Positions 16,529 through 57,418 of a stretch of 64,000 bases of DNA are shown here, in pieces. The position numbers and the translations under genes were made by a program. How positions within the stretch are numbered: the first letter of the stretch is position 1; each line of letters starts with the position of its first letter. The notes beneath the pieces were generated by a model. The model was not told where the DNA came from. It did no database searches and saw nothing but the letters and a program-made list of their open reading frames with translations. The DNA is from an uncultured Clostridia bacterium. GTDB lineage: Bacteria; Acidobacteriota; Blastocatellia; HR10. The DNA lies in NCBI GenBank assembly GCA_964615335.1, contig CAZTMT010000001.1, forward strand, positions 642 to 64,641. Reading direction: 5' to 3'.

Positions 16529-16700
16529 AGGCTTCCCTCCTCATCGAGAGTTGAGATCGAGAGTATATCCCCCCGGCGTAAAATCCGGGTGAAAAGAGAG
16601 AAAATTCTTCAGGAACTCCGAACGCAAGCCCCTGTTTGGTCCGGGACGACAAGAGATTCTCGCCTTCGATCATGACCCATCGTCTCTGAGCATCCTGTCG

Positions 16701-18164: not shown

Positions 18165-18182
18165 CTCCGTCTCCCTGGCTTC

Positions 18183-19628
18183 TCACATCTCGCGCCTCTT
18201 CTGCGCGAGAGATTCCACCGGCCCCGAGGGTGCCTTCTCCTCAGGGCCAGAAGTTATCAACTCCAGATCGGGATCCTGCTGCCGGAAGGCCTCGAAGATC
18301 CGACGGGCCACCTCCCACTGCCCGATCAAAGGATGCACCAGAAGCGCCAGTTGCGCGAGCGTCGCTGAACGTTCCACCGCTGCGCGAATCACGAGGCGTT
18401 CATAAGCTTTCACCGAGAGGACGAGGCCCCGCACGGTCTCCGGCAAGCGCCCGACCGCCAGCGGATGAACTCCCTGTGAGGAGATCAGGCAAGGGACTTC
18501 GACGACATCATCCGACTCCAGATCCGCGATCGCTCCGCGATTGAGTGTGTTCACGACAAGACGTCGCGGTTCCGATCCCCAGAGCGCCATGAGCACATCC
18601 CGCGCGACGCGATGATAGCCCGTCGCCGCTTCGAAGGGATCTTCTCCCTCGAAAACCTCACCGCGCACGGCCGAATGCGCGCTTCCCTCGAGCTGGAGAT
18701 ACGAGGCCGAGCGATGGCGAAGATAAGCGCGGTAGAGGGCGAGGGCCTCCTGCAGGCGACCGGCTGCGATCTCCCGCACAAGATCTCGAAAGAGCTTCTC
18801 GTTGAGCTGTTCCAGTTCTTCCCCTCGACTCGCCCCCACGCGCCGCTGGTTCTCCAGCGCGCGAGCATGAGCGTAGTAGAAGAAGACGTACTCGGTGGGG
18901 ATGAGTCCGAGCGCGCGCAGGAGATCGGGATCGAACAGATCGGCCGGATAGAGGCGCCGCAAAAGCTCTTCATCCTGCAACAGCCGCGCCGTCTCATCCC
19001 GACCGCGCACGAGGACGGTGCGCACCCATCCCAGGTGATTGAGTCCGAAGTACTCGCACGCGATGGCCTCGGGAGGCTCCCCGAGCGCTCGCGCGATGCG
19101 GTGGAAGAGTTCGCCCGGAGTGTCACAAATCCCCAGCACGCGCAACTGCGTGTGTGTTGTGAGAGCTTGGGCGATCACGCCGGCCGGATTGGTGAAGTTG
19201 ATGATCCACGCCTGAGGATTCACACGCTCGATCCGGCGCGCGTACTGGAGCACGACGGGAATCGTGCGCAGGGCCATCGCCCATCCGCCCACACCTGTGG
19301 TCTCCTGTCCGACGAGGCCGTGTGCGATGGCCGTTCGTTCGTCGCGAGCGCGCGCGCGAAGGCCTCCGACGCGAATGCTCAAGATGATCGCGTCAGCCCC
19401 GGTCACAGCTTCTTCCACATTCGTCGCCACCGTCACGGCGAAGTCCCCTTTCGCCTGTCGGATCGCTTCGCGCCCCAAGACGGCCATCAGCTCGGCGCGC
19501 TCTTGGTCCAGATCGTACAGGACGACCTCGCTTATGCCCAGCCGCGTCTGCTGCTCGGCGAGTCCATAGAGGAGCAGAGGGGTGCGTACCCCTCCTCCCC
19601 CGATGAGCGCGAGTTTTCGAGACGTCAT
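18183..19628 (-). CDS. Family GH4 NAD+/Mn2+-dependent glycoside hydrolase
   Basis: N-terminal LALIGGGGVRTP Rossmann fold and INFTNPAGVIAQAL...LGICDTP matching the GH4 ICDxP catalytic-Cys motif. Confidence 0.8.
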   Translation of the reverse strand: MTSRKLALIGGGGVRTPLLLYGLAEQQTRLGISEVVLYDLDQERAELMAVLGREAIRQAKGDFAVTVATNVEEAVTGADAIILSIRVGGLRARARDERTAIAHGLVGQETTGVGGWAMALRTIPVVLQYARRIERVNPQAWIINFTNPAGVIAQALTTHTQLRVLGICDTPGELFHRIARALGEPPEAIACEYFGLNHLGWVRTVLVRGRDETARLLQDEELLRRLYPADLFDPDLLRALGLIPTEYVFFYYAHARALENQRRVGASRGEELEQLNEKLFRDLVREIAAGRLQEALALYRAYLRHRSASYLQLEGSAHSAVRGEVFEGEDPFEAATGYHRVARDVLMALWGSEPRRLVVNTLNRGAIADLESDDVVEVPCLISSQGVHPLAVGRLPETVRGLVLSVKAYERLVIRAAVERSATLAQLALLVHPLIGQWEVARRIFEAFRQQDPDLELITSGPEEKAPSGPVESLAQKRREM

Positions 19629-20563
19629 CCGTTCTCGGAGACCTCCTCTCTCTCAGCGCTCTCGATCTCTTCGGGCGTCGGGAAAGCGGCCACTCCGCCC
19701 AGCGCGCGCGTGGAGAGCGCCCCGCAGAGATTGGCGATCTTCAGACATCGCTCCGGGGACTCTCCGTGTAACCACGCGTAGAGAAATCCCGCATTGAAAC
19801 AGTCGCCGGCGCCTGTCGTATCCACGGGGATCGTGCGATAGGGCTTTTCGGCGAACAGCTCACCATGGTGGAGCAGCATCGCTCCGGCTGCCCCGCGCTT
19901 GAGCGCGATGACCGGAACACCTGTTTCGGCGAGCGCGCGCAGAGCGGCTGTGGGGTCGTGCTCCCCCGTCATCTCCGCAGCCTCCTGCTCGTTCGGGAAA
20001 AAGAGATCGAGCGCGCTGAGGGCACGTCGGCTCTCCCGAGCCCGAAGCCACTCGGGATGCCACCCTACATCCAGGGAGAGACTGGTCCCGTGCTCGTGCA
20101 GGAAGCGCCCCAGGGCGATGAGCACGGCCGGATCCGGCGCGCACGCCAGATGCACGTGTCGAGCGGCTGTCAGCTTCTTCCATGTCTCCGGCTCGGCCAG
20201 CAGCGCCGCAAGCGCGCGATTTGCCCCCATGTAGGTGAAGAACGTTCGCTCCCCTTCGTGCGAGATACTCACGGTCACCGCCGTCGGCTCCTCTTCGTGC
20301 CAGATGAGCCAGTGCGTCCCGACACCCCGGCTCTCCAATTTCTGCTTCACCCACGCTCCATCTTCGCGCCCAACCGGAGCCAGTAGACCCACGCGCATCT
20401 TGAGTCGGGCAAGCCCACACGCCGTGATGGCGGCTCCCCCTCCGACATCGCGCGCGAAGCGCGTGGCGAAAGCTTCCTGGCCCGGCTGCGGCCACTCCGG
20501 AAAGCCGCCCAGGACCAGATCAATGAAGAGATCTCCGACAGCGATGACGTCCCAGCTCTTCAT
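19625..20563 (-). CDS. PfkB-family carbohydrate kinase (ribokinase/KDG-kinase-like)
   Basis: C-terminal DTTGAGDCFNAGFLYAW PfkB signature-2. It is ATGA-coupled to the GH4 gene. Confidence 0.8.
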   Translation of the reverse strand: MKSWDVIAVGDLFIDLVLGGFPEWPQPGQEAFATRFARDVGGGAAITACGLARLKMRVGLLAPVGREDGAWVKQKLESRGVGTHWLIWHEEEPTAVTVSISHEGERTFFTYMGANRALAALLAEPETWKKLTAARHVHLACAPDPAVLIALGRFLHEHGTSLSLDVGWHPEWLRARESRRALSALDLFFPNEQEAAEMTGEHDPTAALRALAETGVPVIALKRGAAGAMLLHHGELFAEKPYRTIPVDTTGAGDCFNAGFLYAWLHGESPERCLKIANLCGALSTRALGGVAAFPTPEEIESAEREEVSENG

Positions 20564-20567
20564 CTCC

Positions 20568-21953
20568 TCACCGAGGGAGCGAAACGTCCCCCACCGCCTC
20601 CGGCACGAAAGGCCATTCTCCTTTTCGATAGGCTCTCCAGAAATACGCTCCCATGCCCAGAAGAAGCAATCCGAGACCCGCCAGGACGAAGATCCAGCCG
20701 CTGGAGATGAGAATGTAGATCCATCCCAGCAGGGCGATCACTACGGGCACCGGATAAAGCCACATGCGAAAAGGTCGGGCGATGTCGGGTCGAAAACGCC
20801 GGATCATCACGACGGCCATGACCTGAGCCAAGTACTGGATGATGATCTGAATGACCAGGAGCGCTTTGATGATTTCATCCAAGGCGAACCAGCAAGCGAG
20901 GGCTGAGAGAAGGCCGATCGTCACCAGCGAGAAGGCAGGGAAGCGTTTGGTCGGATGAAGCCGGGCGAAGGGAGCGAAGAACCGTCCCTCGACAGCCGCG
21001 GCATAGGGGACGCGCGAATATCCGAGCAGGATTGCGAAGATCGAACCGAGCGAAGCCCACAGGATCAAAGCCGTGACCGCGTGTCCGGCCCAGGGGCCAT
21101 AAATCCGCTCCATGAAGTCGGAGACGATGGAACTGCTCTGCATGGCCTCGCGCCAGGGGATGACGCCCAGGATCGTGACACTCATGGTGATGTACAGGGC
21201 CGCGACAGCAAGGATCGCCAGGATGATCGAGCGAGGGATCGTCGAGCCCGGGTTCTTCACTTCGCCTCCGAAGAGGCAGACGTTGAAATATCCCCCATAG
21301 CTGTACATGGCGATGAGCGTCGCGGCGCCCAGACCCGTGATGAATTCCCCAGAGATGTGAAACGCTCCGGCCGGGACGTCTGCGACGCGCTCCCATTGGA
21401 AAGACCGGAGCCCGGAGAGCACAACCCATGCGACAGTCGCCATGACGACCGTCCAGAGGGCAACCGAGAGCTTCCCCACCGAGCGAATGTCGCGATAAAG
21501 AAGGGCCGTGACCAGAAGACACAGACCCGCAGCCAGCAGCTTCGTCTCCCAGGGCGTCATCGCCGGCCAGAAGTATTTCGTATAGAGCGCGAAGCCGACC
21601 GCTCCCGACGCGATCGAAAGCGGCGCGATGAAAATCGTCTGCCAGATGTAGAGGAAACTCATCAGCCGGCCCCATCTCTGCGGACCATACGCCTGCTGCA
21701 GATAGAGATACGGTCCTCCCGCTCCGGGCATGGCCGCTCCCAATTCCGCCCAGACCAGTCCATCGCAGAGCGAGATGAGTGCCCCCACGACCCATCCGAT
21801 CAGGGCTTGCGGTCCCCCCATGGCCGCGATCATGATCGGGATCGTGATGAAAGGCCCGATCCCGATCATGTTGAGCATATTGGTCGAGGTCGCCTGCAAC
21901 AGGCCAATCCCTCGGATGAGGCCGGGATGATCGTTGGTCTCTTCGTGTTTCAT
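20568..21953 (-). CDS. APC-superfamily permease (amino acid/polyamine/organocation transporter)
   Basis: 461 aa with ~12 predicted TM segments, resembling the amino-acid/ethanolamine permease family. Confidence 0.7.
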   Translation of the reverse strand: MKHEETNDHPGLIRGIGLLQATSTNMLNMIGIGPFITIPIMIAAMGGPQALIGWVVGALISLCDGLVWAELGAAMPGAGGPYLYLQQAYGPQRWGRLMSFLYIWQTIFIAPLSIASGAVGFALYTKYFWPAMTPWETKLLAAGLCLLVTALLYRDIRSVGKLSVALWTVVMATVAWVVLSGLRSFQWERVADVPAGAFHISGEFITGLGAATLIAMYSYGGYFNVCLFGGEVKNPGSTIPRSIILAILAVAALYITMSVTILGVIPWREAMQSSSIVSDFMERIYGPWAGHAVTALILWASLGSIFAILLGYSRVPYAAAVEGRFFAPFARLHPTKRFPAFSLVTIGLLSALACWFALDEIIKALLVIQIIIQYLAQVMAVVMIRRFRPDIARPFRMWLYPVPVVIALLGWIYILISSGWIFVLAGLGLLLLGMGAYFWRAYRKGEWPFVPEAVGDVSLPR

Positions 21954-21977
21954 GTCGGATGTCTTTCTGGTCGGCCT

Positions 21978-24668
21978 TCATCTTCGCGCGCGACGCAGGC
22001 TGATCATGTTGGCGAACAGCCGATAAGCTCCGGCCACGCCCGCCGGGAGTTGACGATAGAAGGCATAGGCCGTGTAGATGTAGATCCCGCGCCCGTATCG
22101 AGCCAGCAGCATCCCTCCGCGTTGCGGTTCCTGCCCGCGATCGTGCGACTCCAGCAGGGGGGTGTATCGCTCGTCCCACGTCGTCATGAATTTCGAACCG
22201 CGCTCTTCTACCCATCCCTCGAAGTCCGCCGGCGTGATCCGATTGGGCCAGGTGAAAGCGGGGTGCGTCGGAGCCAGGATCCTCACCGGAGCGTCCTCCT
22301 CGGAGACTTCTTCCGCGCGCGCCCCCAGAGTGTACGGATAGGGGCCAAAAGGCGCTTCGTCGAACTCCTGCGTTTGATACTGCACGATGAGAACTCCGCC
22401 GCGTTCGACATAGTCGAGCAAGCGGCGATTGTAGGCCTTCAGATCCTCCCTGACGGCATACGCGCGAATGCCGATCACAATGACATCGAACGCTTCGAGA
22501 TCGCCCGTGGCTAAATCCGATGGGCCGAGCAGTCGCACGGTGACGCCCAATTGCTCCAGGGCTTTGGGGACTTCGTCTCCAACCCCCATGACGTATCCGA
22601 CCCTCAGCCCCGGAGCTACGGTGACATCCACCCCTCGCAGCTCGATCTCCGCCGGGCGATAGAGATGTCGCGGCTCCAGCTCCCGGTAGGCGATCACCTG
22701 ATACCCTTCGGTGTATTCCTTCCCGTTGTATTGGGCGACAGCCTGCACGCGATAGACCTTGCCGGCCTCCACGCGCGACGGTCTGAGGGAGAAGGCGAAC
22801 GTCTGAATCTCTCCCTCGTGAGTGAAGCGAAACGTCACTTCCGGAGGAGAGACGCTCCATCCCTGAGGCGCGCGGAGCCGGACCGTCCCCTGCGCCGCGC
22901 CCTTCACGTTATTGCGCACGTCCACGCGCACGGGGTAGGGGAGTCGCGTCACCCCCAAGGGGATGATGCCCACCCGAGGAGAGACTGTCACACTGATGGG
23001 AGGAGCGACCATGAGGAGCCGACGCTGCTCTCCCCACGGACGATCCACCCACACCGTCTGCGCCGGTTGCGTCGCCGAGAGGGTGACCCCCTCAAGACGA
23101 TACGTGAAGACGCCCACGACCTCCGGCGGAGACCAGGGCAGGTTCGCATGCTCCGGCTTGTGGATCGTATAAACGGCATCGTGGTATTCCGAAGCCCGTG
23201 ACCAATAGGGGCGCGTGTATTCGGCATCTTCAGGGACGGTCACTTCGAAGCGAACGCGCGCTTGTTCGTTTCGTCCGAGGACGTTCAGTTCCTTGTGAAG
23301 CGCGCGCACGCGCCATCCCGCGGGAGTGCGCAAGGTGATCTCCACGGGTTCCAGACGGATGGGACTTCGGTTGGTCGCTGTCGCTGTGAGCGTGAAGCGC
23401 TGTCCCGGAATGGCGACCGAGAATGTCTCTCGAATTCGGAACCGCTGAGAATCCCCGGGAAGCCCCTCGCCCTCCGGACTCGGATCCACGAGAACGTCCA
23501 GAGCCAGGCCGAGGGCTTTATTCACGGCGTCCTCGAATTCTCGCTCCTTATTGCGGAGCAAAAAGAGAAGATGGTCCTTGGTTGCCTCATCCAGTGAGGC
23601 GCTCTGGACGCGCTCGATCAGAGAACGGGTCAGGCGCAGGCCCGCCGTGAGGTGCGGCGTGATGGTCCATGGATGCCGAGCGTCGAAAGCCGCGAGCGCT
23701 TCGTCCACAAGCCTCTGAATCTCGCTCACCTCCGCGCGGAGATCCAACCCTGGAGCAGCGAGTTTCGCCAGACCGAGCCAGCTCGGGTCGAGGCCCTCAA
23801 AGAGACTGGTCTCCTTTTCAACCTTCGGGAGCACTGTGTCCACGAGTCGGAGCGCGATGCGCGCCGAGCCGCGAGGAGCTCGCGCTTGGCCCGCTCCCTG
23901 CGAGCGCTGGCGGCTCAGGCCCTCGCGGCCGATCTCTCGATAGGAACGCCCGAGCAGAGGATCGTACGTTCCCGTTTCGATCTCCAGCGTGGGCGGTTCC
24001 GCGTCGCGATCGTTGAATCGGAAGGGAGCGACGTAGAGCTTCTTCGCCTGCCAGGGGCGTAATCCTTCGGCGAAATGCTCCGGGAAGCGACGGGGATCAG
24101 CGGCCGCCCGAAACGCTTCCCGCGTGAGGACGCCCGCAGCCTGATGGTTGCCATGCCCATCGCGAGGATCCCCCCGGAATCGCGCGATGATGATGTCAGG
24201 CCGATAGAGGCGAATGACGCGCACGACATCCCGCAAGGCCGTCTCATGTCCCCATTTCTGCAGCGTCTCATCGAGGCGCTTCGAAAATCCGAAGTCCACG
24301 ACGCGCGTGAAGAACTGATCCACGCCGTAGTACCGTCCGGCCGCCAGCAACTCCTCGGTGCGGAGAACACCGAGCGCATCGAAGAGCTCCGGCCCGATCA
24401 GATTCGCCCCTCCTTCGCCGCGCGTGAGCGTGAGCAGTCCCGTGCGGACTCCCTGCCCGCGGCTGAGCCAGGCCAAGAGCGCTTCGTTCTCATCATCCGG
24501 ATGGGCCGTCGTGTGCAGGACGGTGATCGTCGTGCGCAGTCGAAGAAGAGCCTGCCACACAGCGGCTGCATTCTGGTTCTCCACAATTTCCTGGACTTGA
24601 GGGCGGACGGATCCTCCGATCAGTCCGACAAAGAGACAGCTTATGAGTGCTCGCGAGATGTTCTTCAT
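21978..24668 (-). CDS. PIG-L/LmbE-family de-N-acetylase with ~600-aa C-terminal extension (secreted)
   Basis: Signal peptide, then VLHTTAHPDDENEALLAWL (AHPDDE zinc motif of PIG-L/MshB/BshB), followed by a long extra domain of unknown function. Confidence 0.75.
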   Translation of the reverse strand: MKNISRALISCLFVGLIGGSVRPQVQEIVENQNAAAVWQALLRLRTTITVLHTTAHPDDENEALLAWLSRGQGVRTGLLTLTRGEGGANLIGPELFDALGVLRTEELLAAGRYYGVDQFFTRVVDFGFSKRLDETLQKWGHETALRDVVRVIRLYRPDIIIARFRGDPRDGHGNHQAAGVLTREAFRAAADPRRFPEHFAEGLRPWQAKKLYVAPFRFNDRDAEPPTLEIETGTYDPLLGRSYREIGREGLSRQRSQGAGQARAPRGSARIALRLVDTVLPKVEKETSLFEGLDPSWLGLAKLAAPGLDLRAEVSEIQRLVDEALAAFDARHPWTITPHLTAGLRLTRSLIERVQSASLDEATKDHLLFLLRNKEREFEDAVNKALGLALDVLVDPSPEGEGLPGDSQRFRIRETFSVAIPGQRFTLTATATNRSPIRLEPVEITLRTPAGWRVRALHKELNVLGRNEQARVRFEVTVPEDAEYTRPYWSRASEYHDAVYTIHKPEHANLPWSPPEVVGVFTYRLEGVTLSATQPAQTVWVDRPWGEQRRLLMVAPPISVTVSPRVGIIPLGVTRLPYPVRVDVRNNVKGAAQGTVRLRAPQGWSVSPPEVTFRFTHEGEIQTFAFSLRPSRVEAGKVYRVQAVAQYNGKEYTEGYQVIAYRELEPRHLYRPAEIELRGVDVTVAPGLRVGYVMGVGDEVPKALEQLGVTVRLLGPSDLATGDLEAFDVIVIGIRAYAVREDLKAYNRRLLDYVERGGVLIVQYQTQEFDEAPFGPYPYTLGARAEEVSEEDAPVRILAPTHPAFTWPNRITPADFEGWVEERGSKFMTTWDERYTPLLESHDRGQEPQRGGMLLARYGRGIYIYTAYAFYRQLPAGVAGAYRLFANMISLRRARR

Positions 24669-24808
24669 ACCTGTTGGCTCCTTTCATCGCGTAAGGCGAG
24701 CTACCGCCCTTCCCTCCCGCGCGAGGGGAATGACGGCGGTCGTGAGGCCTCAAGGCGCGCCCCACGACCGCACCGGGAGACTCGGCTTTTCTCCGGTCCC
24801 AAGCCGTT

Positions 24809-27800
24809 TCAGAAGTAAAGCTTCAGCCCAAGCTGAATCTCACGAGCCGGACGCTCGGGATTCCGCAGACTCGTCGTGCGTCCGAACGTGCCGCTGGCCA
24901 CGTTCGAATCGGGCGCGGCGAACTGCGGCGTGTTCCACACGTTGAAGAACTCGACGCGGAACTCCAGATAGCGCTCCTCGGTGAAGCGAATCTTCTTGAA
25001 CAATGAGATGTCCCAGTTGTGGAATGCCCAGGAGCTGATCGTGTTCGGACCGCACGTGCCGAAGGTGAAAGGCGCCGGGATGCGGAACGCGTTCTTGTCA
25101 AAATACTGGGCGAGCGTGGGCTTGAAGCCCGCCGGGAAAGGATTCCCCACGCAATCTGCGCGCGAGGTGTGGCCCGGACCCGTATTGCTCCGATCCGGAG
25201 CGTAGATCGTGATGGGAACACCGCTTGTCGAGCTCACGATCCCATTGAGCTGCCAATCGCCCAGGATCTTCGCCCACGCGCCCTCGTTCAGGTAAGGCTG
25301 GCGCGGCCCGAAGGGCAGCTCCCACACCCAGTTGACAACGAGGCGATGACGTTGATCAAACGGCAAGCGCCCGTAATCGGCGCGCATGTCGTAGACGTTC
25401 TGCGGGAGGTTCTGAGGATTCACATTTCCGAACGTTGGGGAGAGATGTTCGCTCACGGTCCCGAGCGCCTTCCCCAATGTGTAGGCGACGTTGAAGGCCA
25501 GTCCGTGCGAGTAGCGCTTGTTCACCGTGATCTGTAACGAGTTATAGTTGGACGTCGCATCGGTGCCGAGCCACTGGATGTAGGCGCAGGAACCGGGGGC
25601 GAGGCAGAAGTCCGGATAGGGGAAGACGACGGGTCCGACGCCGGGCGTGACGATCCGTCCCTGATTGAGGTTGCGCAGCTTTCGGATCTTGCGGTTGTAG
25701 TTGCCGACAAACGAGACGTCCACCGAGAGGTCGTTCGTGATGAGGAACTGCGGCCCGAAGCTGACCTGCTGCGAGTACGGCGAACGCTCATGAAAACTGC
25801 GCGCGCGAATCTGGAGCCGTCGGACATCCACGGTCGCGGGCGCCGGCAGGAATCCATCGCGCAACAGAAGCAGTGGCGGGGCATTGCTCGGAACGCTCAG
25901 ACTCGCGTCAATGACCTGCGGGGGATTCAACTGGAGCATGCTCTCGCTCCCCATGCGATCCATCACCTGGTAGAAGATGCCCACTCCCCCTCTCCAGACG
26001 AGCCGCGACGTCGGAGCATACGCGAAGCCAAGCCGCGGGGCGAAGTTGTTGCGGTCCGGATGCACGAGCGTGCGCGAGAAAAGTCCCTGCCCCTTGGGAG
26101 CCGGTTGAATCGGCGGGAAGGGATTGGGCGCCGCCGTGATCAATCCTCCGCGCCCTCCGTTGGCCGCGGGATCGAAGTTCGTCGTCAGGTCGTTCCGCTC
26201 GATGAAGGGCGTGAAGTATTCGTACCGCACGCCGTAGGTGAGGGTGAGCTTGGGACTGACGCGCCAGCTATCCTGGACGTACCACATGAATCCATCAATG
26301 TAGTTGTGGACAACATGAGGCGTCGTCGTCTGCTGGAAGGAGGCCAAGCCCAGAAGCAGATTCGCGAATCCGTCTCCCGTCCAGAACGTGTTGAAAGCCA
26401 GCTCGCCATGGGGCGCGCGCACGTCCAGGAAGTTGTTCACAAGCCGCTTATACTCGAAGCCGAACTTGTAGGAGTGAGCCCCCCGAATGTAGGAGACGTT
26501 GTCCAGAACCTGATAGACCTGCGAGACCTGAAATTGCGGGCGCCAGCCGGAGGTTCCCAGGAAGCTGTACCCCGCGACGCGAATCCACGGCAGGCCGTAG
26601 ACGAATTCGTTGTTGGGAGCATTCTTCAAACCGAATTCGGCCGCCGCACTCCCTTTGGGCGCCAGCGGTCGGGACCAGCTCTTGATGCGGTTGAATCCGA
26701 AGCGCAGGTCGTTGAGCAGGTTCGGAGAGAACGTGTGATCCCATGTGAGGGCGAGGACCTGACCGCGGACCTCGCTGTTGGCGCTGAAGCCTCCGGTGGC
26801 CAGCGGATTCAGGAAGGGACCGCGCTCGATCATCGCTCGTTCGTCGAAGAAATCGTAGACGCCGAAGATGACGTCCTTCTCCCCGAGACGATGATCGAGG
26901 CGCACGTCGAAGGAATCGTTATCGCTGGGAATGTTGATCGAAGAGACGAACGTGAACGGAGAGATGCCCGGCGCATTGGGCAGCGGATAGAGCGATGCGA
27001 ACTTCACGCCGACGGGATCGGCGCAGGGACGCCCATCGGTGCGCATGGCGTTGAGGTTGAGGCGATTCGGAGGAGAGATGCAGGGAGCGATGACCGACAG
27101 GAAGTCCGGAGGCGCCGTCAGAACCGGACGCTCGCTGAAATCGCCCTGCCGCATCCGAGCCGTCGGGACTGTCCCCGTCAGCGTCGTCTCTCGGCGCGAG
27201 CGCAGCCCCTGGTAGTCGAAGAACCAGAAGGTTCGGTCTTTGAGGAGGGGACCACCGACGGCGAATCCCGCCTGATTGCGAAGGAATTCCCCTTTGGGGA
27301 TCACGCGGGAGCCATCGGGCCGACGCCCGGCCGCGTTGGCGAAGAAATCGGCGGCATCCAGATTATCGTTGCGATGGAACCACCAGGCCGTCCCATGCAG
27401 GTCGTTACTGCCGGAGCGAATCTCGGCATTGATCACAGCGCCCTGAAACCACCCGAACTCCGCATTGTAGGTGCGCGTCTGCACGCGAAATTCGCGCAGC
27501 GCATCCGGAGGCGGTTGCACCACCTGCGGGCTCCGCTCCTGCGCGTTGGTCGAGAACGAGTTGTTGTCCACGCCGTTCAGGGCGAAGTAGTTCTGAAGCG
27601 AGAAGTTCCCATTGACGTTGATCTTGGCCTCGCGCGGATTCCCTCCGCTGGGCGTCGGCAGAGCGCCTGGCGCCAGCAGGATCAAATCCGAATACCGTCG
27701 GCCATCCAGGGGGAGGTCCACGATCCGTCGCTGCTCGACAACGGCCCCCACGTCCGCACTCTGCGTCTGCAGGACGGGAACCGTCTCGGTGACGATCATC

Positions 27801-28179
27801 TCCTCGGTGATCGTTCCCGGTTGCAGAGTCACATCCACGCGCAGACGCTCCTGCACGTGCACGATGACGTTGCTCCGAACAGCCGTCTGAAATCCGGGAG
27901 CCGTCACCCGGACTTCATACGGGCCGGGACGAAGAGCGGGGGTGACGTAGGACCCCGTCGCATCGGTGGTGACCTTCACGCTCGTCCGAAGCTCCAGGTG
28001 CGTGATCGTCACCTCAGCGTTGGGGACCACAGCTCCGGTCGGATCGGTGACCGTTCCCACGATGACCCCCGTGTTGATCTGAGCGCGAAGCCCTGTGCCG
28101 CTGAGGAGAGTCAACAGGATCAGCCACACAGAGCCGGCGAAGATCAAGCGACCACGTGAGGCTCGAACTCTCTCGCACA
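24809..28179 (-). CDS. TonB-dependent outer-membrane receptor (paralog, CarboxypepD_reg N-domain)
   Basis: Same architecture as 13169-16528, ending ...LGLKLYF. I place the start at ATG 28177-28179, preceded by AGGAGG with 5-nt spacing; the track start is an upstream GTG. Confidence 0.85.
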
Positions 28180-28364
28180 TAGTCACCTCCTGTGAAGTGT
28201 TCGCGGGGCCTCACCAGCACCCCGGATGAGTGGGCCTTTTCAGCCATTGGTCAATAAGCGTCGCCAGCCGCTGGACGACAAGCTCCACGAGCCGCTCCCC
28301 CTTCTCCGGCAGAGCCATCAAGGACATCACCACGTCTCGTCTGGTGACGCTCATGACCCCCTCG

Positions 28365-52715: not shown

Positions 52716-53989
52716 GATTCGCAGTCAGGGTGGAGCTCAGGATAAGGGGCTGAGATATAAGGCCAAAGTGAGACGCCTGCTCGTCACGAGGCTCCTCACA
52801 GAGTCGCGCGCACCTGTCGTCCCTTCGGGAAGGTGCGAAGAAAAATGGCCCTGCCATCGGCTGCCCCATGAGCCCGTGCGTGCCGCTTGCCAGAGAATAT
52901 CGCACCGCTGCTTCTGCCTGTGCTCCCAGTACGATCACTCGCTCCCGCTTCGGCCCCTTCACTCCATCGCCTTCGCCCACAAGGTGAGCCGCACCGTCAA
53001 CAAGAGAGCGAACTCTCGCAGGAGCTTCTGCTTGGACGTGAACGATAGCAGGGCCAATCTTGGTGGAGAAAGGATGCCGCAGCTCGGCCCGCCTTCGGTC
53101 CGCTTCTGCTGCCACGGGAATGCGCGCCTGAGCCCTGTGGTCCAGACGAACACGGAGATCCGATGTAACTCCTGCATGATCAGTCGCTTCCGCTTGATCA
53201 CCTGTGAGAGCAAAACGGACGTGTCGCCAGCGCTCGAACTCCCACCTGATCCCGTGCGCACGCATGAGCTTCTGATGAGCTTTCTCACGCTCTGGAACCG
53301 GCGCAGGATCTGTCGAATCGGACAAAGCTGCGGCAATCTTGCTCGGCTCTTCCAGAGGCGGCCATGGGGAGCCTCTCCAAAACCCGGATTCCCGGCCCAA
53401 AGCCCATGTCCTGCGTCTGTGCTCGATCTGCCTCATTCTGCGCCTCCGGACAAGCCGCCCGACGATCTCTCTCGCCAGCTCGCCGCCTCAAAGAGCACCT
53501 CGCTGACGGTCGCGCATGTTATACCATGAGTCCCGTGAAAAGTCAAGGAAAAAGTTCAAGTAATTTCTCAACCGATCTGGACTAAGACTTAGCGAATTAA
53601 AGACTAAAAAGTGGGGGCCATACGGGCGAGCGGCTAACTCGTCACGGCTCTATGTCTTAACGAGCCTCGCAGTCCATTTTAAGTGACCCGGACAAGGGGC
53701 CTCGGCAAGGTTTTTCTCCGTAATCTGGCGTGCCCAGAGGCCGGACTATGGGATTAGTTGGGCGTCCGCCCTGGGGGACTCCATAGAGACCCTCGGAAGA
53801 GAGCGACAGAAAATAGCCTAGGGTGGAGCGAAGCGGAACCCCAGGAAACGGGGTCCCCAATTATCCTCGAGCCCGCGCCAGCGGGCGGCACATCGGGTCA
53901 GGAGCCTGACGAATTGAAGGAGGCCATTCGTGTATCCCCCGATGTCGTAACCTGGCGTTCATGAACCAGACCCGCTGGGTGGCCGTCCG

Positions 53990-54330
53990 ATGTGTCGCCC
54001 CCTTCGGGGGCTCGTGGAGAAATTTTGGGGCCTCACGTTTCCTTACGCCCTAGGCTATTCTCTGTCGCCCACTTCGTGGGCTCTATGCGGAATGCCTCGT
54101 TCTCCAAATGGGCTCGCGCCCCAGGCTATTTTCTGTCGCCCCCTTCGGGGGCTTTTTGTGGAAAATGTGTCGTTCCGCAAATTGGGCTCGCGCCCCGGGC
54201 TATTCTCTGTCGCCAGCTCGCGCGAGCTCTGTGCGGAAATGTATCGTTCTCCCGATGGAGCTCGCGCCCCGGGCTCCTGCCGCCGCAGGTGTAGGCTTTT
54301 TGTGGAACGCTGTCGGTCCCGATCTTCTCG
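53990..54330. repeat. Tandem array of about five ~73-bp structured repeats (UUCG-tetraloop hairpins, GGGC-TCGC-GCCC hairpin); not CRISPR
   Basis: Units end ...GGGCTCGCGCCCC(A/G)GGCTATTCTCTGTCGCC, then a variable hairpin (CCCTTCGGGGGC, CACTTCGTGGGC, or AGCTCGCGCGAGCT), then TGYGGAA(A)TG..TCGTTCYSC.. . The stem changes are compensatory. The array lies just 3' of the FG-GAP gene. Confidence 0.7.
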
Positions 54331-54463
54331 GCGCACGCTCATGGAGACTGCCTTCTGTCCGATAAGGAACGGTCTCTATCAAGTCCCAGGAGGTCCTGTG
54401 AGGGGGCCTTGTCTTTTGGCCTATTTGCTCGGCTTCACACAGACGACCGATCTCGAGCAGCTC

Positions 54464-55792
54464 TCAACCCCCGATTCCTCCAAGATAAAGAAGCACGCGA
54501 CCGGCCCTTCGCGCGAGGCCCGGAGCCCCCACGGCGAGATCGGGTTTTCCATCCCTGTTGAAATCTCCGATGGCCAGAGCTGTCCCGAACTCTCCGCCTG
54601 TCTCAGGAGTCGGGGGATCAAGAGTCGCAGTGGGAGTGGGCCCGATAGTGTCGCCTCCAGAGTAGATGTACACTCGTCCGGCCCGTGACCGGCCTCCGAC
54701 AGAAGCTCCGATGGCTCCTATAGCGAGGTCGTTTTTGCCATCTCCGTTGAGGTCTCCTGTGGCCAGGGCATATCCGAATGCGGAACCCGCCTGAGGCGCG
54801 GGCTCTTCGAGTGTGAGATCGGGGGTATCCCTTAAAGTCGGTCCGCCAAAGAAGATGTAGACTCGGCCTGTCCGGGACGCTTCCGACGTGTTGGGTGACC
54901 CTACGATGAGATCCGCATATCCGTCGCCGTTGAGATCGGCTACGGCTAAGGAAGAAGCGAATGCCGGATTCTCCGGATCCGTTGAACCAACCGCAGGATG
55001 AGGGTTTTGCAAGACGAAATCGGGACGGCTGCTGAGCTGTTTTCTCCCCAGGAACACGTACACCGCTCCCGCTCCGGTTGATCCTCCAAATGGAGCGCCA
55101 ATCGCGATATCGGCCAGTCCGTCTTTGTTCAAATCGCCTGCTGCGACGGCAAAGCCATAGTACTCTTCGTCGATATTCCCTCTGAGGGTCGTTCGTCGGG
55201 CTCCGATCGTATTTCCTCCGTACAGGATGACGACGGCATCTAAGAACCAGGCTCCGACGATCAGGTCGCTCCTTCCATCCCCATCGACATCCCCGTTGGC
55301 GAGAGCACCCCCAAAATAACCTCCCACGAACTCCTCTGGAGGAAGCGGGCTTCGGATGGTCACTGAGCTCCTCCCGAAGTTCTGGGCACCCAGATAGATG
55401 ATGACCTGTCCATCGAAGGAGGAGTCTTCGCTATTGCTCGCCCCTGGGGCTCCGATAGCCAGGTCGGTGCGACCATCCCGGTTCCAGTCTCCGGAAGCGA
55501 GCGCGATCCCGAAGTCGATCCCCGTCTCGCGCGTGGAGAGAGTGACGTTGGGCGTCGGCTGAAGTGTCGTGCGCCCGTAGAAGATGAAGACTCGTTCGTT
55601 GGTATTGGAAACGGCCAGGTCCATGCCCCCATCATTGTTGAAGTCCCCAGCAGCCATGGCCGAGCCAAAAGCTGCATCAGCCTGCGGGCGCGATTCGGTC
55701 AAAATCAGAGGTGACGGTTGAGGAGACTGAGGGAAGGCGAGGCCTCCGATCAGAAGAAGTCCTGCGACGTAGGAGAGAGCCGCTCTTCTCAT
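54464..55792 (-). CDS. Secreted FG-GAP / integrin-alpha beta-propeller repeat protein
   Basis: Signal peptide MRRAALSYVAGLLLIGGLAFP, then 7 or more repeats of the FG..A.GD.N.DG..DL..GAP type (FGSAMAAGDFNNDGGMDLAV, FGIALASGDWNRDGRTDLAIGAP ...). The 5' ~285 codons of the track ORF are an antisense read-through of aspA and are rejected. Confidence 0.7.
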   Translation of the reverse strand: MRRAALSYVAGLLLIGGLAFPQSPQPSPLILTESRPQADAAFGSAMAAGDFNNDGGMDLAVSNTNERVFIFYGRTTLQPTPNVTLSTRETGIDFGIALASGDWNRDGRTDLAIGAPGASNSEDSSFDGQVIIYLGAQNFGRSSVTIRSPLPPEEFVGGYFGGALANGDVDGDGRSDLIVGAWFLDAVVILYGGNTIGARRTTLRGNIDEEYYGFAVAAGDLNKDGLADIAIGAPFGGSTGAGAVYVFLGRKQLSSRPDFVLQNPHPAVGSTDPENPAFASSLAVADLNGDGYADLIVGSPNTSEASRTGRVYIFFGGPTLRDTPDLTLEEPAPQAGSAFGYALATGDLNGDGKNDLAIGAIGASVGGRSRAGRVYIYSGGDTIGPTPTATLDPPTPETGGEFGTALAIGDFNRDGKPDLAVGAPGLARRAGRVLLYLGGIGG

Positions 55793-56026
55793 GCTACTCC
55801 TCCGGCAGCGGAGTTTTCGTGTAGCCTGAGGGCCTTCGGGTGGAGAGGGGGAGCTGCCCTGTGCGCTCCCGATTCTTGCGATCTTCTGGAATGCTGGAAC
55901 ACGGTTCCTTTTTACCCCATCTTCCGAGCCATGGCAAGGGAAATCTTGTAAGGGCGCTCTCGCTTCTGAAGGAGCTGGCTTTTTTCCCCAAGATGTGCTG
56001 CAGTAATGGAGAGGGATGGGAGCACT

Positions 56027-57418
56027 ATGAGGATCGAGAGAGACAGCTTGGGTGAGAAGGCTGTTCCCGATGAGGCGTATTACGGGATTCAGACGGTGCG
56101 CGCTGTGGAGAACTATCCGATCAGCGGCTGGCGTCCCTTTCCCGAGCTTGTGCGCGCGATCGTGCGCGTCAAAAAGTGCGCGGCGCGCGTCAATGCGGAG
56201 CTGGGGCTTCTGGAGGAAAATCTGGCGCGCGCGATCATCGCCGCGGCCGATGAGGTGCTCTCGGGTCGGCTTCTGGATCAGTTCGTTGTGGACGTCTTCC
56301 ATTCGGGAGCGGGCGTTTCTTTCCACATGAACGTGAACGAGGTGTTGGCGAATCGCGCCAATGAGATCCTCGGGGGGCAGCGCGGGGTGTACTCTCCGGT
56401 GCATCCGAACGATCATGTGAATCGGGGGCAATCCACCAATGACGTCATCCCGACGGCGATGCGCCTGGCCATGCTGGAGGCGGCGCGGCCCTTGCGAGAG
56501 AGTCTGGAAGGCCTTGTGCGCGCGTGGCGTCAGAAGGGCCAGGAGTTCGATGATGTTCTCAAGTGCGGGCGCACGCATCTTCAGGATGCTGTTCCCGTCC
56601 GCCTGGGACAAGAATTTCAGGCCTACGCGCAGATCATCGAGGAACACAGACGACGCCTGGAGCAGGGGCTCGCGGAATTACGCGTGCTCGGTATCGGCGG
56701 GACAGCCGTCGGAACGGGATTGAATGCGCATCCGGCCTTTCGGTTTCGCGTCGTCGAGGAGCTCAGGCAGGAGACGGGGGAAGATCTCGTGCCGGCCCGG
56801 GATCTGATGGCCGCCATGCAGAGCATGGCTCCTTTTGTCGCCGTCTCCGGAGCGATGAAGAACCTCGCGCTGGATCTCATCAAGATCTGCGATGATCTGC
56901 GCTTGATGAGTTCGGGTCCGCTCACGGGCTTAGGCGAGATCGAGCTGCCGGCTCTTCAGCCAGGATCTTCGATCATGCCGGGTAAGGTCAATCCCGTCAT
57001 GCCGGAGATGCTCACGATGGTTTGCTTTCAGGTCATCGGCAACGACATGACGATCTCTCTGGCGGCGGCTCACGGGGAATTGGAGCTGAACGTCATGATG
57101 CCTGTGATCGCTTTCGATCTCCTCCTGTCGGCGAGAATCCTCGCCAACGCCCTGCGCGTCTTCACCGAGCGCGCCGTCGTGGGGATCCGGGCTCAGGTCG
57201 CGCGGTGTCGCGGCTATGCCGAGAGCAGTCCCGCTCTGGTCACGGCGCTCACGCCTTATATCGGATATGCGCGCGCGGCCGAAGTGGTGCGCGAAGCTCT
57301 CGCCACGCGACGGACCATTCGGGAGATCGTCCGGGAGAAAGGCTGGATGAGCGAAGCCGAGCTGGAGCGCGCGCTGGACATCGAGGCGATGACTCGGGGA
57401 GGACTTCTCATCGGCTGA
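56027..57418 (+). CDS. aspA: Aspartate ammonia-lyase (class II fumarase/aspartase family)
   Basis: GSSIMPGKVNP signature, NDHVNRGQSTNDVIPTA, and an N-terminus ...SLGEKAVPDEAYYGIQTVRAVENY that aligns to AspA. Confidence 0.8.
   Translation: MRIERDSLGEKAVPDEAYYGIQTVRAVENYPISGWRPFPELVRAIVRVKKCAARVNAELGLLEENLARAIIAAADEVLSGRLLDQFVVDVFHSGAGVSFHMNVNEVLANRANEILGGQRGVYSPVHPNDHVNRGQSTNDVIPTAMRLAMLEAARPLRESLEGLVRAWRQKGQEFDDVLKCGRTHLQDAVPVRLGQEFQAYAQIIEEHRRRLEQGLAELRVLGIGGTAVGTGLNAHPAFRFRVVEELRQETGEDLVPARDLMAAMQSMAPFVAVSGAMKNLALDLIKICDDLRLMSSGPLTGLGEIELPALQPGSSIMPGKVNPVMPEMLTMVCFQVIGNDMTISLAAAHGELELNVMMPVIAFDLLLSARILANALRVFTERAVVGIRAQVARCRGYAESSPALVTALTPYIGYARAAEVVREALATRRTIREIVREKGWMSEAELERALDIEAMTRGGLLIG

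What the first reader, a model, noticed from the sequence alone, without database searches (positions are those of the whole stretch)
53990..54330. Tandem array of ~73-bp repeats, each a set of UUCG-tetraloop hairpins with compensatory stem substitutions: candidate structured ncRNA / novel repeat family
About five consecutive units share the GGGCTCGCGCCCC-GGCTATTCTCTGTCGCC backbone. The first hairpin differs between copies only by paired changes (CCC..GGG, CAC..GTG, AGCTCGC..GCGAGCT) around a TTCG loop, which conserves structure and not sequence. The second hairpin (GYGGAA...TTCCGC/TTCTCC) and third (GGGC-TCGC-GCCC) behave likewise. It is not a CRISPR: there are no unique spacers and the variable parts are homologous to each other. 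It lies in a convergent gap just 3' of the FG-GAP gene. It could be a multi-hairpin sRNA, a protein-binding RNA scaffold, or a REP/BIME-like element.
Basis: seen in the sequence. Interest (0 to 1): 0.6.

Follow-up and report, generated by a model that had tools for sequence, protein, structure and literature searches.

The report
Decayed REP-like transposase-site repeat cluster
The ~73-bp tandem repeats are real, but they are worn copies of the known "Acido-Lenti-1" motif, forming one arm of a symmetric hairpin element that in related bacteria surrounds a small single-strand-DNA transposase gene, so it is probably a relic of mobile DNA, not a new RNA gene.

Summary
The tandem array exists: TRF gives period 74 and 3.2 copies at 54046-54275, and there are 3 good and 2-3 degenerate units. 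It is only the right arm of a ~640-bp dyad-symmetric element (53760-54400). The left arm carries an inverted unit at 53784-53847.

Each unit is hairpin 1, the linker CTATTYTCTGTC, then hairpin 2. This is a degenerate copy of Rfam RF01687 (Acido-Lenti-1, function unknown). Window copies score 19-23 bits against a gathering threshold of 37. They score 28-40 bits with my own model, which was built from relatives that pass the Rfam threshold.

Ninety loci from Acidobacteriota and Planctomycetota genomes and from metagenomes show the same layout. I counted 44 divergent pairs 77-135 nt apart, and same-strand copies 68-78 nt apart. Both stems covary strongly.

In relatives, a 150-aa HUH/Y1 transposase gene (IS200-like, Quentin subclass 1.2) sits at the dyad centre or directly beside it. 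This held for 5 of 5 distinct homologues, plus a Bacteroidota plasmid. Two other RAYT clades showed no association (0 of 7 loci).

The array is therefore best read as a gene-less, REP/BIME-like derivative whose hairpins are single-strand-DNA sites for that enzyme. The 73-nt units probably arose by slippage between direct hairpin-2 copies. No tnpA lies in the window. An sRNA reading is not supported.

The parts
53760..53777 (-). Remnant of hairpin 1 (GGGC-GTCC-GCCC plus TGGGGG) from a further, truncated outer unit of the left arm.
   Evidence: Read from the sequence. In motif orientation it reads CCCCCAGGGCGGACGCCC, matching the family's HP1 consensus CCCAGGGC-NNNN-GCCC.
53784..53847 (-). Full left-arm unit in inverted orientation: HP2b' 53790-53803, linker' CGACAGAAAATAG 53804-53816, HP1' 53817-53845.
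   Evidence: R1 hit of 31.2 bits, E 1.5e-5. Rfam RF01687 hit of 22.0 bits, below threshold. Inverted repeats I1-I3.
53870..53896 (-). Inner left hairpin 2 (HP2a': GCCCGC-GCCA-GCGGGC) followed by GGCACATCGG, the counterpart of the family's GACAGA.
   Evidence: Inverted repeat I5, 53880-53896 with 53987-54003. Same position as HP2a' in about 20 related dyads.
53897..53986 (.). Dyad centre (90 nt). In autonomous relatives the 453-nt tnpA ORF sits here; in this window it is gene-less.
   Evidence: Layouts of L098, L101, L102 and L107. tblastn with 120 TnpA homologues finds nothing at E<=0.01 anywhere in the window.
53987..54012 (+).
   Evidence: Sequence; the repeat finder family D1 and inverted repeat I5.
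54022..54085 (+). Unit U1: HP1 with an enlarged 15-nt loop and three G.U pairs (54024-54054), linker CTATTCTCTGTC (54055-54066), HP2 GCCCAC-TTC-GTGGGC (54067-54081).
   Evidence: R1 hit of 37.7 bits, E 4.9e-7. Rfam hit of 19.0 bits.
54108..54156 (+). Unit U2: HP1 reduced to GGGC-TCGC-GCCC (54110-54121), linker 54126-54137, HP2 54138-54152 followed by TTTTT (terminator-like).
   Evidence: R1 hit of 40.5 bits, E 1.1e-7, with the outer 4 bp of HP1 unpaired. Rfam hit of 22.8 bits. Terminator-like site at 54138-54152.
54182..54228 (+). Unit U3: HP1 54184-54195, linker 54200-54211, HP2 replaced by the palindrome AGCTC-GCGC-GAGCT (54215-54228).
   Evidence: R1 hit of 28.1 bits, E 7.7e-5; sequence.
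54256..54297 (+). Unit U4, degenerate: GAGC-TCGC-GCCC, a shortened linker CTCCTGCC, and a weak HP2 GCC...GGC.
   Evidence: the repeat finder families D1 and D2; sequence. Not detected by R1.
54330..54400 (+). Unit U5, strongly degenerate. It contains ...CCTTCTGTC, CCG-ATAAGGAA-CGG and the tail TCTCTATCAAGTCCCAGGAGG, which mirrors the left-arm tail.
   Evidence: Inverted repeat I4, 53775-53791 with 54371-54387, 17 nt at 88%. Manual alignment to U2 from the sequence.
52768..53529 (+). Left flanking gene, a 253-aa hypothetical protein with no Pfam hit, reading towards the element.
   Evidence: GC3 is 0.72 against 0.60 for the overlapping minus-strand ORF. No Pfam family found.
54464..55990 (-). 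Right flanking gene, an FG-GAP repeat protein, reading towards the element. The 5' limit is approximate because the long ORF overlaps the fumarase-type lyase gene that starts at 56006.
   Evidence: Pfam FG-GAP E 2.8e-66; Lyase_1 for 56006-57418.

Best explanation
The ~73-bp array is the expanded right arm of a ~640-bp, dyad-symmetric, gene-less DNA element (53760-54400). The element is built from degenerate copies of the Acido-Lenti-1 module: hairpin 1, linker CTATTYTCTGTC, hairpin 2.

In related genomes the same dyad has this layout: [HP2b'-linker'-HP1'], spacer, [HP2a'], centre, [HP2a], spacer, [HP1-linker-HP2b]. A 150-aa HUH/Y1 'IS200-like' transposase gene (Quentin subclass 1.2: DHVH, WQ, Y-x3-Q-x2-HH) lies at that centre or directly next to the dyad.

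Inferred mechanism:
- The hairpins are recognition sites read on single-stranded DNA by that enzyme, as REPs are for RAYT and subterminal hairpins are for IS200/IS605 TnpA.
- The conserved nTAG lying 5' of hairpin 1 on the strand opposite the Rfam strand would play the role of the REP 'GTAG' guide.
- Gene-less dyads like this one are non-autonomous derivatives, REPIN/BIME-like, propagated in trans.
- The 68-78-nt tandem units arise by slippage, unequal exchange or TnpA strand transfer between the two direct HP2 copies in each arm.

The window copy is decayed: HP1 outer stems are lost, units U4 and U5 are eroded, and no tnpA lies within 64 kb. It is most likely a relic. Any present role, such as hairpins ending or protecting the 3' ends of the two convergent genes, would be secondary.

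Shown: the repeat anatomy, family membership of the relatives, covariation, the dyad layout and the transposase association. Inferred: ssDNA recognition, mobilisation in trans and the origin of the tandem units.
For: 1. Family link.
- Sub-threshold RF01687 hits at three window units.
- The exact 21-mer CCCYRGGCTATTYTCTGTCGC was found in 39 genome loci and 51 metagenome loci, against about 2 expected by my own calculation.
- 34 copies in 18 of those loci pass Rfam's gathering score.
- Model R1, built from such copies, scores the window units at 28-40 bits and finds nothing else convincing in 64 kb.

2. Dyad layout.
- 44 divergent (- then +) pairs have gaps mostly of 77-135 nt, against only 3 convergent pairs.
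- Same-strand neighbours lie 68-78 nt apart.
- Weinberg's own seed coordinates show 69-74-nt tandem spacing and dyads with ~93-nt gaps in Lentisphaera.

3. Hairpins are real.
- 96.6-97.8% of cells are paired, and 11-12 of 13 pairs show changes on both sides.
- 0 of 500 shuffles reach the observed values in either of two independent alignments.

4. Transposase association.
- In L049 a Y1_Tnp gene (Pfam E 2e-23; NCBIfam IS200/IS605) is flanked by motif copies.
- Four further homologues were chosen without knowledge of their flanks: P0242, P0261, P0322 and P0268, 58-65% identical. All are flanked, with tnpA at the dyad centre in L098-100, L101 and L102-105.
- In L106 seven tandem units at a ~72-nt period lie next to tnpA.
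- A 41%-identical homologue on a Persicobacter plasmid sits in the same two-hairpin dyad.
- Controls: 0 of 7 loci of two other RAYT clades carry the motif.

5. Protein class.
- All seven TnpA sequences keep D-H-x-H, WQ and Y-x3-Q-x2-HH. This matches subclass 1.2 of PMC6006769.
- The nearest solved structures are the ISDra2 and IS608 TnpA proteins.

6. Strand signal.
- On the Rfam strand, A.C-type mismatches total 66 against 29 G.U-type.
- The complementary strand, which carries nTAG 5' of HP1, therefore tolerates the variation better.

7. REP-like context.
- Elements are intergenic: 13 lie between convergent genes, 11 between tandem genes and 5 between divergent genes.
- This matches the REP behaviour described in PMC3733652.
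Against: - No tnpA and no second element lie in the 64-kb window, so neither a cognate enzyme nor dispersal is shown for this genome.
- The associated TnpA is not a canonical RAYT (Y-x3-NP). Its subclass was reported as lacking REPs.
- No binding or cleavage data exist for it.
- In two loci (L049, L106) tnpA lies beside the dyad, not inside it.
- In one Blastocatellales MAG the dyad rides inside a ~330-bp MITE with its own TIR and 7-bp target duplications. That implies a DDE transposase moved it there.
- The five TnpA loci are relatives of one protein that was itself found through the motif, so how far the association extends across subclass 1.2 is unknown.
- The G.U versus A.C counts include related copies and are not independent events.
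- Transcription was not tested. Covariation alone cannot separate RNA hairpins from ssDNA hairpins.
Confidence: 0.7

Rival explanations
1. The array is a gene for a structured non-coding RNA. This could be tandem multi-hairpin sRNA units or a protein-sponging scaffold transcribed from the + strand, in line with Rfam's typing of Acido-Lenti-1 as 'Gene; sRNA'.
For: - Both stems covary strongly.
- The array folds better than shuffles as RNA, with z of -3.6.
- Unit U2 ends in a terminator-like hairpin followed by T5.
- The location is intergenic.
- Spacers contain GGA-type words (GYGGAA; sequence).
Against: - Units occur in mirror-image pairs, so both strands carry the motif.
- The minus strand folds equally well as single-stranded DNA: z of -3.6 against -4.1 for the + strand.
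- No sigma-70-like promoter was found in 53400-54700.
- A.C mismatches outnumber G.U wobbles on the Rfam strand, 66 to 29.
- Window copies are decayed and fall below Rfam's threshold.
- Copy number per arm varies from 1 to 7 between loci.
- The dyad surrounds a transposase gene in relatives and is cargo of a MITE in another genome.
- The GGA-containing spacer differs in sequence between related loci.
Confidence: 0.1
2. The primary function is at the level of the flanking mRNAs. The element would be a bidirectional stack of GC-rich hairpins between two convergent genes that terminates transcription or blocks 3' exonucleases. The repeat family would spread because it is useful, not because an enzyme moves it.
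For: - It lies between convergent genes.
- Across loci, convergent and tandem contexts are enriched: 13 and 11 against 5 divergent.
- The dyad reads alike from both sides.
- There is one terminator-like site, against 1.2 expected for the whole region.
- REPs are proposed to function this way (PMC3733652).
Against: - It does not explain the conserved single-stranded linker and the nTAG tag.
- It does not explain the exact placement of tnpA in the dyad.
- Most HP2 hairpins lack a T-run.
- Five elements lie between divergent genes.
- This reading is compatible with the best explanation as a secondary, exapted role.
Confidence: 0.12
3. It is an ordinary MITE moved by a DDE transposase. The hairpins would be internal cargo and the true ends would be short terminal inverted repeats with target-site duplications.
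For: - Six copies in a Blastocatellales MAG have a 13-bp TIR (GATGTTACGCA..) and 7-bp AT-rich direct duplications around the dyad.
- The window has an outer 17-nt inverted repeat, 53775-53791 with 54371-54387.
Against: - In the other multi-copy sets (Sulfomarinibacteraceae MAGs and others) homology stops right after HP2b, with no shared TIR or duplication.
- The window's outer inverted repeat is simply the tail of the repeated unit on both arms (sequence).
- No DDE transposase was seen next to any dyad, although this was not searched systematically.
- The Y1 gene association is specific.
Confidence: 0.05
4. It is a degenerate CRISPR-like array. The GTCGC-stem-loop segment resembles type I-C repeats.
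For: The spacing is regular at ~73 nt. From memory only, GTCGCCCCCTTCGGGGGC...GTGGAA resembles I-C repeats.
Against: - The 'spacers' are homologous to each other and contain the conserved HP1 and linker.
- Units occur in mirror pairs.
- No CRISPR family was reported by Rfam in the window.
- I did not search the window for cas genes.
Confidence: 0.01

Closest known systems
Acido-Lenti-1 RNA motif (Rfam RF01687; Weinberg et al. 2010, PMC2864571)
   Same: - Same two-hairpin module with the GGCUA...CG linker.
- Relatives sharing the window's exact 21-nt core pass Rfam's gathering score.
- Same phyla.
- The seed coordinates already show 69-74-nt tandem spacing and dyads with ~93-nt gaps.
   Different: - Window copies score only 19-23 bits against a threshold of 37, because the outer HP1 stem is lost or its loop is enlarged.
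- Rfam types the family as an sRNA of unknown function.
- My evidence points instead to a DNA-level, REP-like element tied to a Y1 transposase. I found no paper in the searched library that says so.
REP / BIME / REPIN elements with their RAYT (TnpA_REP) in a REPtron (E. coli, Pseudomonas; PMC3479197, PMC3733652, PMC6006769)
   Same: - GC-rich hairpin with an adjacent conserved tag ending in AG (nTAG compared with GTAG).
- Intergenic location, mostly downstream of genes.
- Head-to-head inverted dimers 20-100+ nt apart, and clusters reiterated in tandem with flanking DNA.
- A low-copy HUH/Y1 gene flanked by inverted copies.
- One TnpA protein was found at the same cysS-ispF locus in the four places read, from different samples.
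   Different: - The unit is a two-hairpin module with a 12-nt linker, not a single REP.
- The tag is ATAG, GTAG, TTAG or CAG, not a strict GT[AG]G.
- The enzyme is subclass 1.2 (Y-x3-Q-x2-HH, 150 aa), not a class-2 RAYT (Y-x3-NP).
- Two bona fide RAYT clades tested here do not carry the motif.
IS200/IS605 insertion sequences (IS608, ISDra2)
   Same: - The associated protein is closest in sequence to these TnpA proteins.
- The ends carry subterminal hairpins.
- No target duplication is seen at most dyads.
   Different: - The ends here are mirror images (inverted repeats), whereas IS200/IS605 ends are asymmetric with both hairpins on one strand.
- tnpA appears to be low-copy and syntenic, not multi-copy.
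- No tnpB is called next to tnpA in the gene tables of the tnpA loci.
- The gene-less derivatives far outnumber the gene-bearing ones.
TnpA_Y1 class 3 REPtron-like elements of Planctomycetes and Acidobacteria (Quentin et al. 2018, PMC6006769)
   Same: Same phyla. [quoted passage not shown]
   Different: Class 3 proteins are ~178 aa with NHVH, W[TA] and YV..EQ motifs, and a CnGA foot. Here the protein has DHVH, WQ and YI.NQ..HH, and the foot is nTAG.

Membership tests
Rfam RF01687 Acido-Lenti-1 | Covariance-model score at or above the curated gathering score (37 bits). | tested here: not met
   Window units score 22.8, 22.0 and 19.0 bits, and none is reported at the gathering threshold. Relatives sharing the same 21-nt core score 37.5-63.4 bits.
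Rfam RF01687 Acido-Lenti-1 | Homology to bona fide members: two hairpins joined by a GGCUA...C linker of 12 nt. | tested here: met
   Model R1, built from 16 relatives (11 of them confirmed above Rfam's gathering score), gives 40.5, 37.7, 31.2 and 28.1 bits with E from 1e-7 to 8e-5. The linker is identical to that of the relatives. The window units are therefore decayed members.
REP / BIME / REPIN | Short GC-rich imperfect palindrome with a conserved unpaired GT[AG]G-type tag at its foot. | tested here: inconclusive
   HP1 is an 8-bp GC-rich stem with a 4-nt loop. On the strand opposite the Rfam strand it is preceded by ATAG (window and pattern-selected loci) or GTAG (many Sulfomarinibacteraceae and Anatilimnocola copies). 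In the Weinberg seeds the tag is TTAG or CAG. Only the AG is near-invariant.
REP / BIME / REPIN | Arrangement as inverted dimers and tandemly reiterated clusters in intergenic DNA. | tested here: met
   44 divergent pairs and same-strand spacing of 68-78 nt. The window has 1 left and 5-6 right units. Contexts are mostly convergent or tandem.
REP / BIME / REPIN | Many dispersed copies in the same genome. | not testable with these tools
   Only 64 kb of the source genome is available and it holds one cluster. Related MAGs and samples show 4-7 separate loci each with the exact 21-mer alone.
REPtron (REP plus cognate Y1 gene) | A low-copy HUH/Y1 transposase-like gene flanked by inverted copies of the repeat. 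| tested here: met
   This is met in relatives: L049, L098-100, L101, L102-105, L106 and L107. It is not met in the window itself, which has no tnpA.
REPtron (REP plus cognate Y1 gene) | The enzyme is a class-2 RAYT (Y-x3-NP motif). | tested here: not met
   The associated proteins carry Y-x3-Q-x2-HH, DHVH and WQ, which is subclass 1.2. RAYT clades like aba1552 and rba11751 lack the motif in 7 loci.
IS200/IS605 | Y1 TnpA with asymmetric left and right ends, multi-copy near-identical elements, often with tnpB. | tested here: not met
   The TnpA matches NCBIfam IS200/IS605 (59.9 bits against a cut-off of 55). However, the ends are mirror images, the same protein recurs at one syntenic site, and no tnpB is called beside tnpA in those loci.
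DDE-type MITE | Short terminal inverted repeats plus target-site duplication at the element borders. | tested here: inconclusive
   Present around the dyad in six Blastocatellales copies (TIR GATGTTACGCA, 7-bp TSD). Absent at the borders of the other dyads I examined by eye. The window borders are too eroded to judge.
CRISPR array | Identical repeats separated by unique spacers, usually near cas genes. | tested here: not met
   The inter-repeat segments are homologous to each other and contain the conserved HP1 and linker. No CRISPR family was hit in Rfam. I did not search for cas genes.

The most novel reading that the evidence does not exclude
Acido-Lenti-1 is not an sRNA. It would be the repeat partner of subclass-1.2 HUH/Y1 'IS200-like' proteins, a subclass previously reported to have no REPs. 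Together they would form a distinct REPtron-type system present in Planctomycetota, Acidobacteriota, Lentisphaerota and Bacteroidota. In this system the recognised unit is a two-hairpin module, the gene sits at the centre of a dyad, and gene-less dyads multiply and grow by ~72-nt unit duplication. The window would hold a decayed example.
Probability: 0.6. Interest if true: 0.6.

Novelty: new variant of a known kind. Interest (0 to 1): 0.45.

Why it matters
The window feature itself is an eroded relic with little consequence for its host.

The family-level result matters more:
- It gives a concrete, testable identity to an Rfam motif that has had no function since 2010.
- It suggests RF01687 is mistyped as an sRNA.
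- It assigns a candidate DNA substrate to subclass-1.2 Y1 proteins, whose role is unknown.
- It extends REP/REPtron-like biology beyond Proteobacteria, to phyla where such systems are poorly described.
- It offers a simple source (direct HP2 repeats) for the ~73-nt minisatellite-like expansions seen in several phyla.

It is also a caution that covariation in GC-rich palindromes does not by itself indicate an RNA.

Tried and rejected
- Rfam at gathering threshold on the whole window found nothing. Only the E-value mode revealed RF01687.
- I looked up the window's fumarase-type protein to find the source contig; it is not on record. The source organism is therefore only inferred as Acidobacteriota-like, from its CarboxypepD_reg/OMP_b-brl_4 receptors.
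- A regex for HUH...Y motifs over the first 39 loci and the window found no Y1 gene.
- I tested Koribacter-type RAYT (aba1552; sequence taken from the supplement of PMC3733652). Three loci have no R1 hit near the gene. They have their own unrelated double-hairpin TIR.
- I tested Rhodopirellula-type RAYT (rba11751). Four loci show no motif.
- The P0001 look-up failed.
- tblastn of 120 TnpA homologues against the dyad centre, looking for a tnpA remnant, gave only chance-level matches with E of 0.008-0.09 in an 800-nt database.
- The attC/integron idea (prompted by the group II intron note in Weinberg 2010) was dropped. There is no R''/R' GTTRRRY symmetry and the 73-nt period leaves no room for cassettes. 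This rests on reasoning from the sequence only.
- The CsrA-sponge idea (GGA in the spacers) was dropped because the spacers differ in sequence between related loci.
- My GC3-based gene caller missed the FG-GAP gene, whose GC3 is 0.62. The context counts are therefore approximate.
Full report
**1. What is in the window**

The stretch 53990-54330 does contain head-to-tail repeats. TRF reports 54046-54275 with period 74, 3.2 copies and 79% matches. The repeat finder gives 3-4-copy families spaced 70-74 nt over 53992-54307. The core 17-mer occurs 5 times in 64 kb against 0.22 expected, and 0 of 100 shuffles reach that count.

Reading the sequence, each unit consists of:
- a spacer of about 25 nt;
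- hairpin 1 (HP1), here mostly reduced to GGGC-TCGC-GCCC;
- a linker, CTATTYTCTGTC;
- hairpin 2 (HP2), such as GCCCCC-TTC-GGGGGC, followed by CT.

Only three units are complete: 54022-54085, 54108-54156 and 54182-54228. The 'first unit' is just an HP2 stub (53987-54012). Two further units (~54256-54297 and ~54330-54400) are eroded.

The whole of 53760-54400 is one dyad-symmetric element with one unit on the left arm and five or six on the right.

It lies between convergent genes: a 253-aa ORF at 52768-53529 (+) and an FG-GAP gene ending at 54464 (-). Both strands of the array fold better than shuffles, and about equally well: DNA z of -4.05 and -3.56, RNA z of -3.59. No sigma-70-like promoter is found. 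One unit has a terminator-like HP2 followed by T5.

**2. It is a known motif in decayed form**

Rfam at gathering threshold finds nothing. In E-value mode three units hit RF01687, Acido-Lenti-1, at 22.8, 22.0 and 19.0 bits against a gathering score of 37. That motif was described by Weinberg et al. 2010 with no function beyond 'sometimes near group II introns' (PMC2864571). Its seed coordinates already show tandem spacings of 69-74 nt and inverted pairs about 93 nt apart in Lentisphaera araneosa.

The exact 21-mer CCCYRGGCTATTYTCTGTCGC was found in 39 loci of GTDB genomes. These are from Acidobacteriota, Planctomycetota and one MAG labelled Deltaproteobacteria. It was also found in 51 metagenome loci. 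By my own calculation about 2 matches were expected by chance in the genome collection.

Thirty-four copies in 18 of the genome loci pass Rfam's threshold, at 37.5-63.4 bits. A model built from 16 such relatives (R1) scores the window units at 40.5, 37.7, 31.2 and 28.1 bits and finds nothing else convincing in 64 kb. The alignments show why Rfam misses the window copies. U2 and U3 have lost the outer 4 bp of HP1, and U1 and the left unit have enlarged HP1 loops.

**3. Family anatomy**

Across 99 sources, divergent (- then +) pairs dominate. There are 44, with gaps mostly of 77-135 nt, against 3 convergent pairs. Same-strand neighbours lie 68-78 nt apart.

Reading the pairs gives a constant plan:

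[HP2b'-linker'-HP1'] - ~22 nt - [HP2a'-GACAG] - centre (0-90 nt) - [CTGTC-HP2a] - ~25 nt - [HP1-linker-HP2b]

The two arms are not complementary in their stems or spacers. It is therefore the local hairpins, not a long cruciform, that are conserved.

Both stems covary strongly in two independent alignments. In these, 97.8% and 96.6% of cells are paired, and 12 and 11 of 13 pairs show changes on both sides. No shuffle out of 500 reaches the observed values, and the slid-partner controls collapse.

On the Rfam strand, A.C-type mismatches outnumber G.U-type. The counts are 13 against 6, 15 against 15, and 38 against 8 in Weinberg's distinct seeds, for a total of 66 against 29. So the complementary strand tolerates the variation better. 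These copies are related to each other, so this is only a hint.

On that complementary strand HP1 is preceded by ATAG or GTAG (TTAG or CAG in the Lentisphaera seeds). This resembles the GTAG guide of REPs, whose A and G specify cleavage by RAYT (PMC3479197; REP families and head-to-head dimers in PMC3733652).

With a rough GC3-based gene caller, 13 elements lie between convergent genes, 11 between tandem genes and 5 between divergent genes.

**4. The associated gene**

Two bona fide RAYT clades were tested first. The Koribacter aba1552 type was checked at 3 loci and the Rhodopirellula rba11751 type at 4 loci. Neither carries the motif.

Among the metagenome loci, L049 holds a 150-aa Y1_Tnp gene (Pfam E 2e-23; NCBIfam IS200/IS605, 59.9 bits) flanked by three motif copies. 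All are flanked by R1-positive copies, most of which also pass the Rfam threshold.

- In L098-100, L101 and L102-105 the 453-nt ORF sits at the dyad centre. In L098 it starts 15 nt after HP2a'-GACAGA and is followed 12 nt after its stop codon by CTGTC-HP2a.
- In L106 seven tandem units at a ~72-nt period, plus two or three opposite units, lie just upstream of the gene.
- A 41%-identical homologue on a Persicobacter (Bacteroidota) plasmid sits in the same two-hairpin dyad in an AT-rich version. A Bernardetia homologue is preceded by alternating hairpin repeats.

All seven proteins keep D-H-x-H, WQ and Y-x3-Q-x2-HH. That is the signature of TnpA_Y1 subclass 1.2 of Quentin et al. 2018. Those authors describe the subclass as low-copy, about 148 aa, mostly found in Cyanobacteria and Bacteroidetes, and without REPs (PMC6006769). 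The nearest solved structures are ISDra2 and IS608 TnpA. One such protein recurs at the same cysS-ispF site in the four places read, from different samples, which is how a domesticated gene behaves, not an IS.

**5. Interpretation**

The window's array is best explained as a gene-less, REP/BIME-like (REPIN-like) derivative of this dyad. Its hairpins are most likely single-strand-DNA sites for the subclass-1.2 enzyme.

The ~73-nt units equal the distance between the two direct HP2 copies of an arm (70, 71 and 74-77 nt in the window). Slippage, unequal exchange or TnpA strand transfer between them is therefore the simplest origin of the tandem expansion. The same period appears in L009, L106 and Lentisphaera.

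Mobilisation in trans, ssDNA recognition and the guide role of nTAG are inferences from IS200/IS605 and RAYT biochemistry. They were not shown here. The window has no tnpA and its units are eroded, so it is probably a relic. A secondary role as hairpins that end or protect the two convergent mRNAs is possible but untested.

Some evidence complicates the picture:
- In a Blastocatellales MAG the dyad is cargo of a ~330-bp MITE with its own TIR and 7-bp target duplications.
- tnpA lies beside the dyad, not inside it, in L049 and L106.
- The five TnpA loci are relatives of one protein that was itself found through the motif.

**6. Comparison and novelty**

The element fails Rfam's curated threshold for RF01687 but is demonstrably a decayed member. 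It works like a REP/BIME with a REPtron. It is not a canonical one, because the unit has two hairpins and the enzyme is not a class-2 RAYT. It is not an IS200/IS605 in the strict sense, because the ends are mirror images and the gene is low-copy. It is not a CRISPR array.

In the library searched, I found no paper that links Acido-Lenti-1 to a transposase or gives subclass 1.2 a repeat partner.

I rate the finding a new variant of a known kind. The window feature is of modest interest. The family-level link is the more useful result.

Noticed in passing
window 5198-5743: There are 63-nt and 147-nt tandem repeats, up to 90% matching, inside a long ORF (4606-5997, minus strand) that gives only weak coiled-coil-type Pfam hits. 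Which strand carries the real gene is unclear.
   Followed up: no
window 8406-28186: This looks like a glycan-use locus: a GH38 alpha-mannosidase, two ~1100-aa paralogues with CarboxypepD_reg plus OMP_b-brl_4 (TonB-receptor-like), and a PIG-L deacetylase. The receptor type suggests an Acidobacteriota source.
   Followed up: partly
window 54464-55990 (-): The FG-GAP gene next to the element has a GC3 of about 0.62, against 0.72-0.82 in neighbouring genes. It may have been acquired horizontally. My GC3-based gene caller missed it for this reason.
   Followed up: no
L002, L005, L037, L024, L026, L029 (Blastocatellales MAG JBFWQI01): The Acido-Lenti-1 dyad is embedded in a ~330-bp MITE with the terminal inverted repeat GATGTTACGCA and 7-bp AT-rich target duplications (TTAATAA, TTACTAA, TAAATTA, CTACTTA). 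There are two subfamilies that share the arms but differ in the inner region.
   Followed up: partly
L049 140-960: The (+) motif copy plus about 60 nt of its flank (the 3' end of a neighbouring gene) is duplicated on both sides of the tnpA gene. This suggests a rearrangement or duplication linked to the element.
   Followed up: no
L106 791-1453: Seven tandem minus-strand units at a ~72-nt period and two or three plus-strand units lie directly upstream of a subclass-1.2 tnpA. This is the largest array seen.
   Followed up: partly
L041 2930-3000 and 3440-3525: The Koribacter-type RAYT gene has its own double-hairpin terminal inverted repeat (GGCACGGC-TTCA-GCCGTGCC ... GGGC-TTT-AGCCC). The design is similar to Acido-Lenti-1 but the sequence is unrelated.
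   Followed up: partly
L108 1293-1469 (Bernardetia plasmid NZ_CP147018.1): Four alternating copies of a GTTGCAGAGCAAC hairpin with a GTAATAT tail lie just upstream of a 35%-identical subclass-1.2 tnpA. This may be another repeat partner of the subclass.
   Followed up: no
window 54040-54093 and 54210-54248: Translated repeat units weakly resemble TnpA segments: LRPRLFSVAHF against residues 26-41, and DTFPHRARASW against residues 84-96. The E-values are 0.008-0.05 in an 800-nt database with 120 queries, which is chance level.
   Followed up: partly
window 16929-16970 (-) and 55412-55454 (+): These are very weak R1 matches (9-10 bits, E about 1), the first also being a 3-mismatch match to the 17-mer. 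They are probably chance.
   Followed up: no
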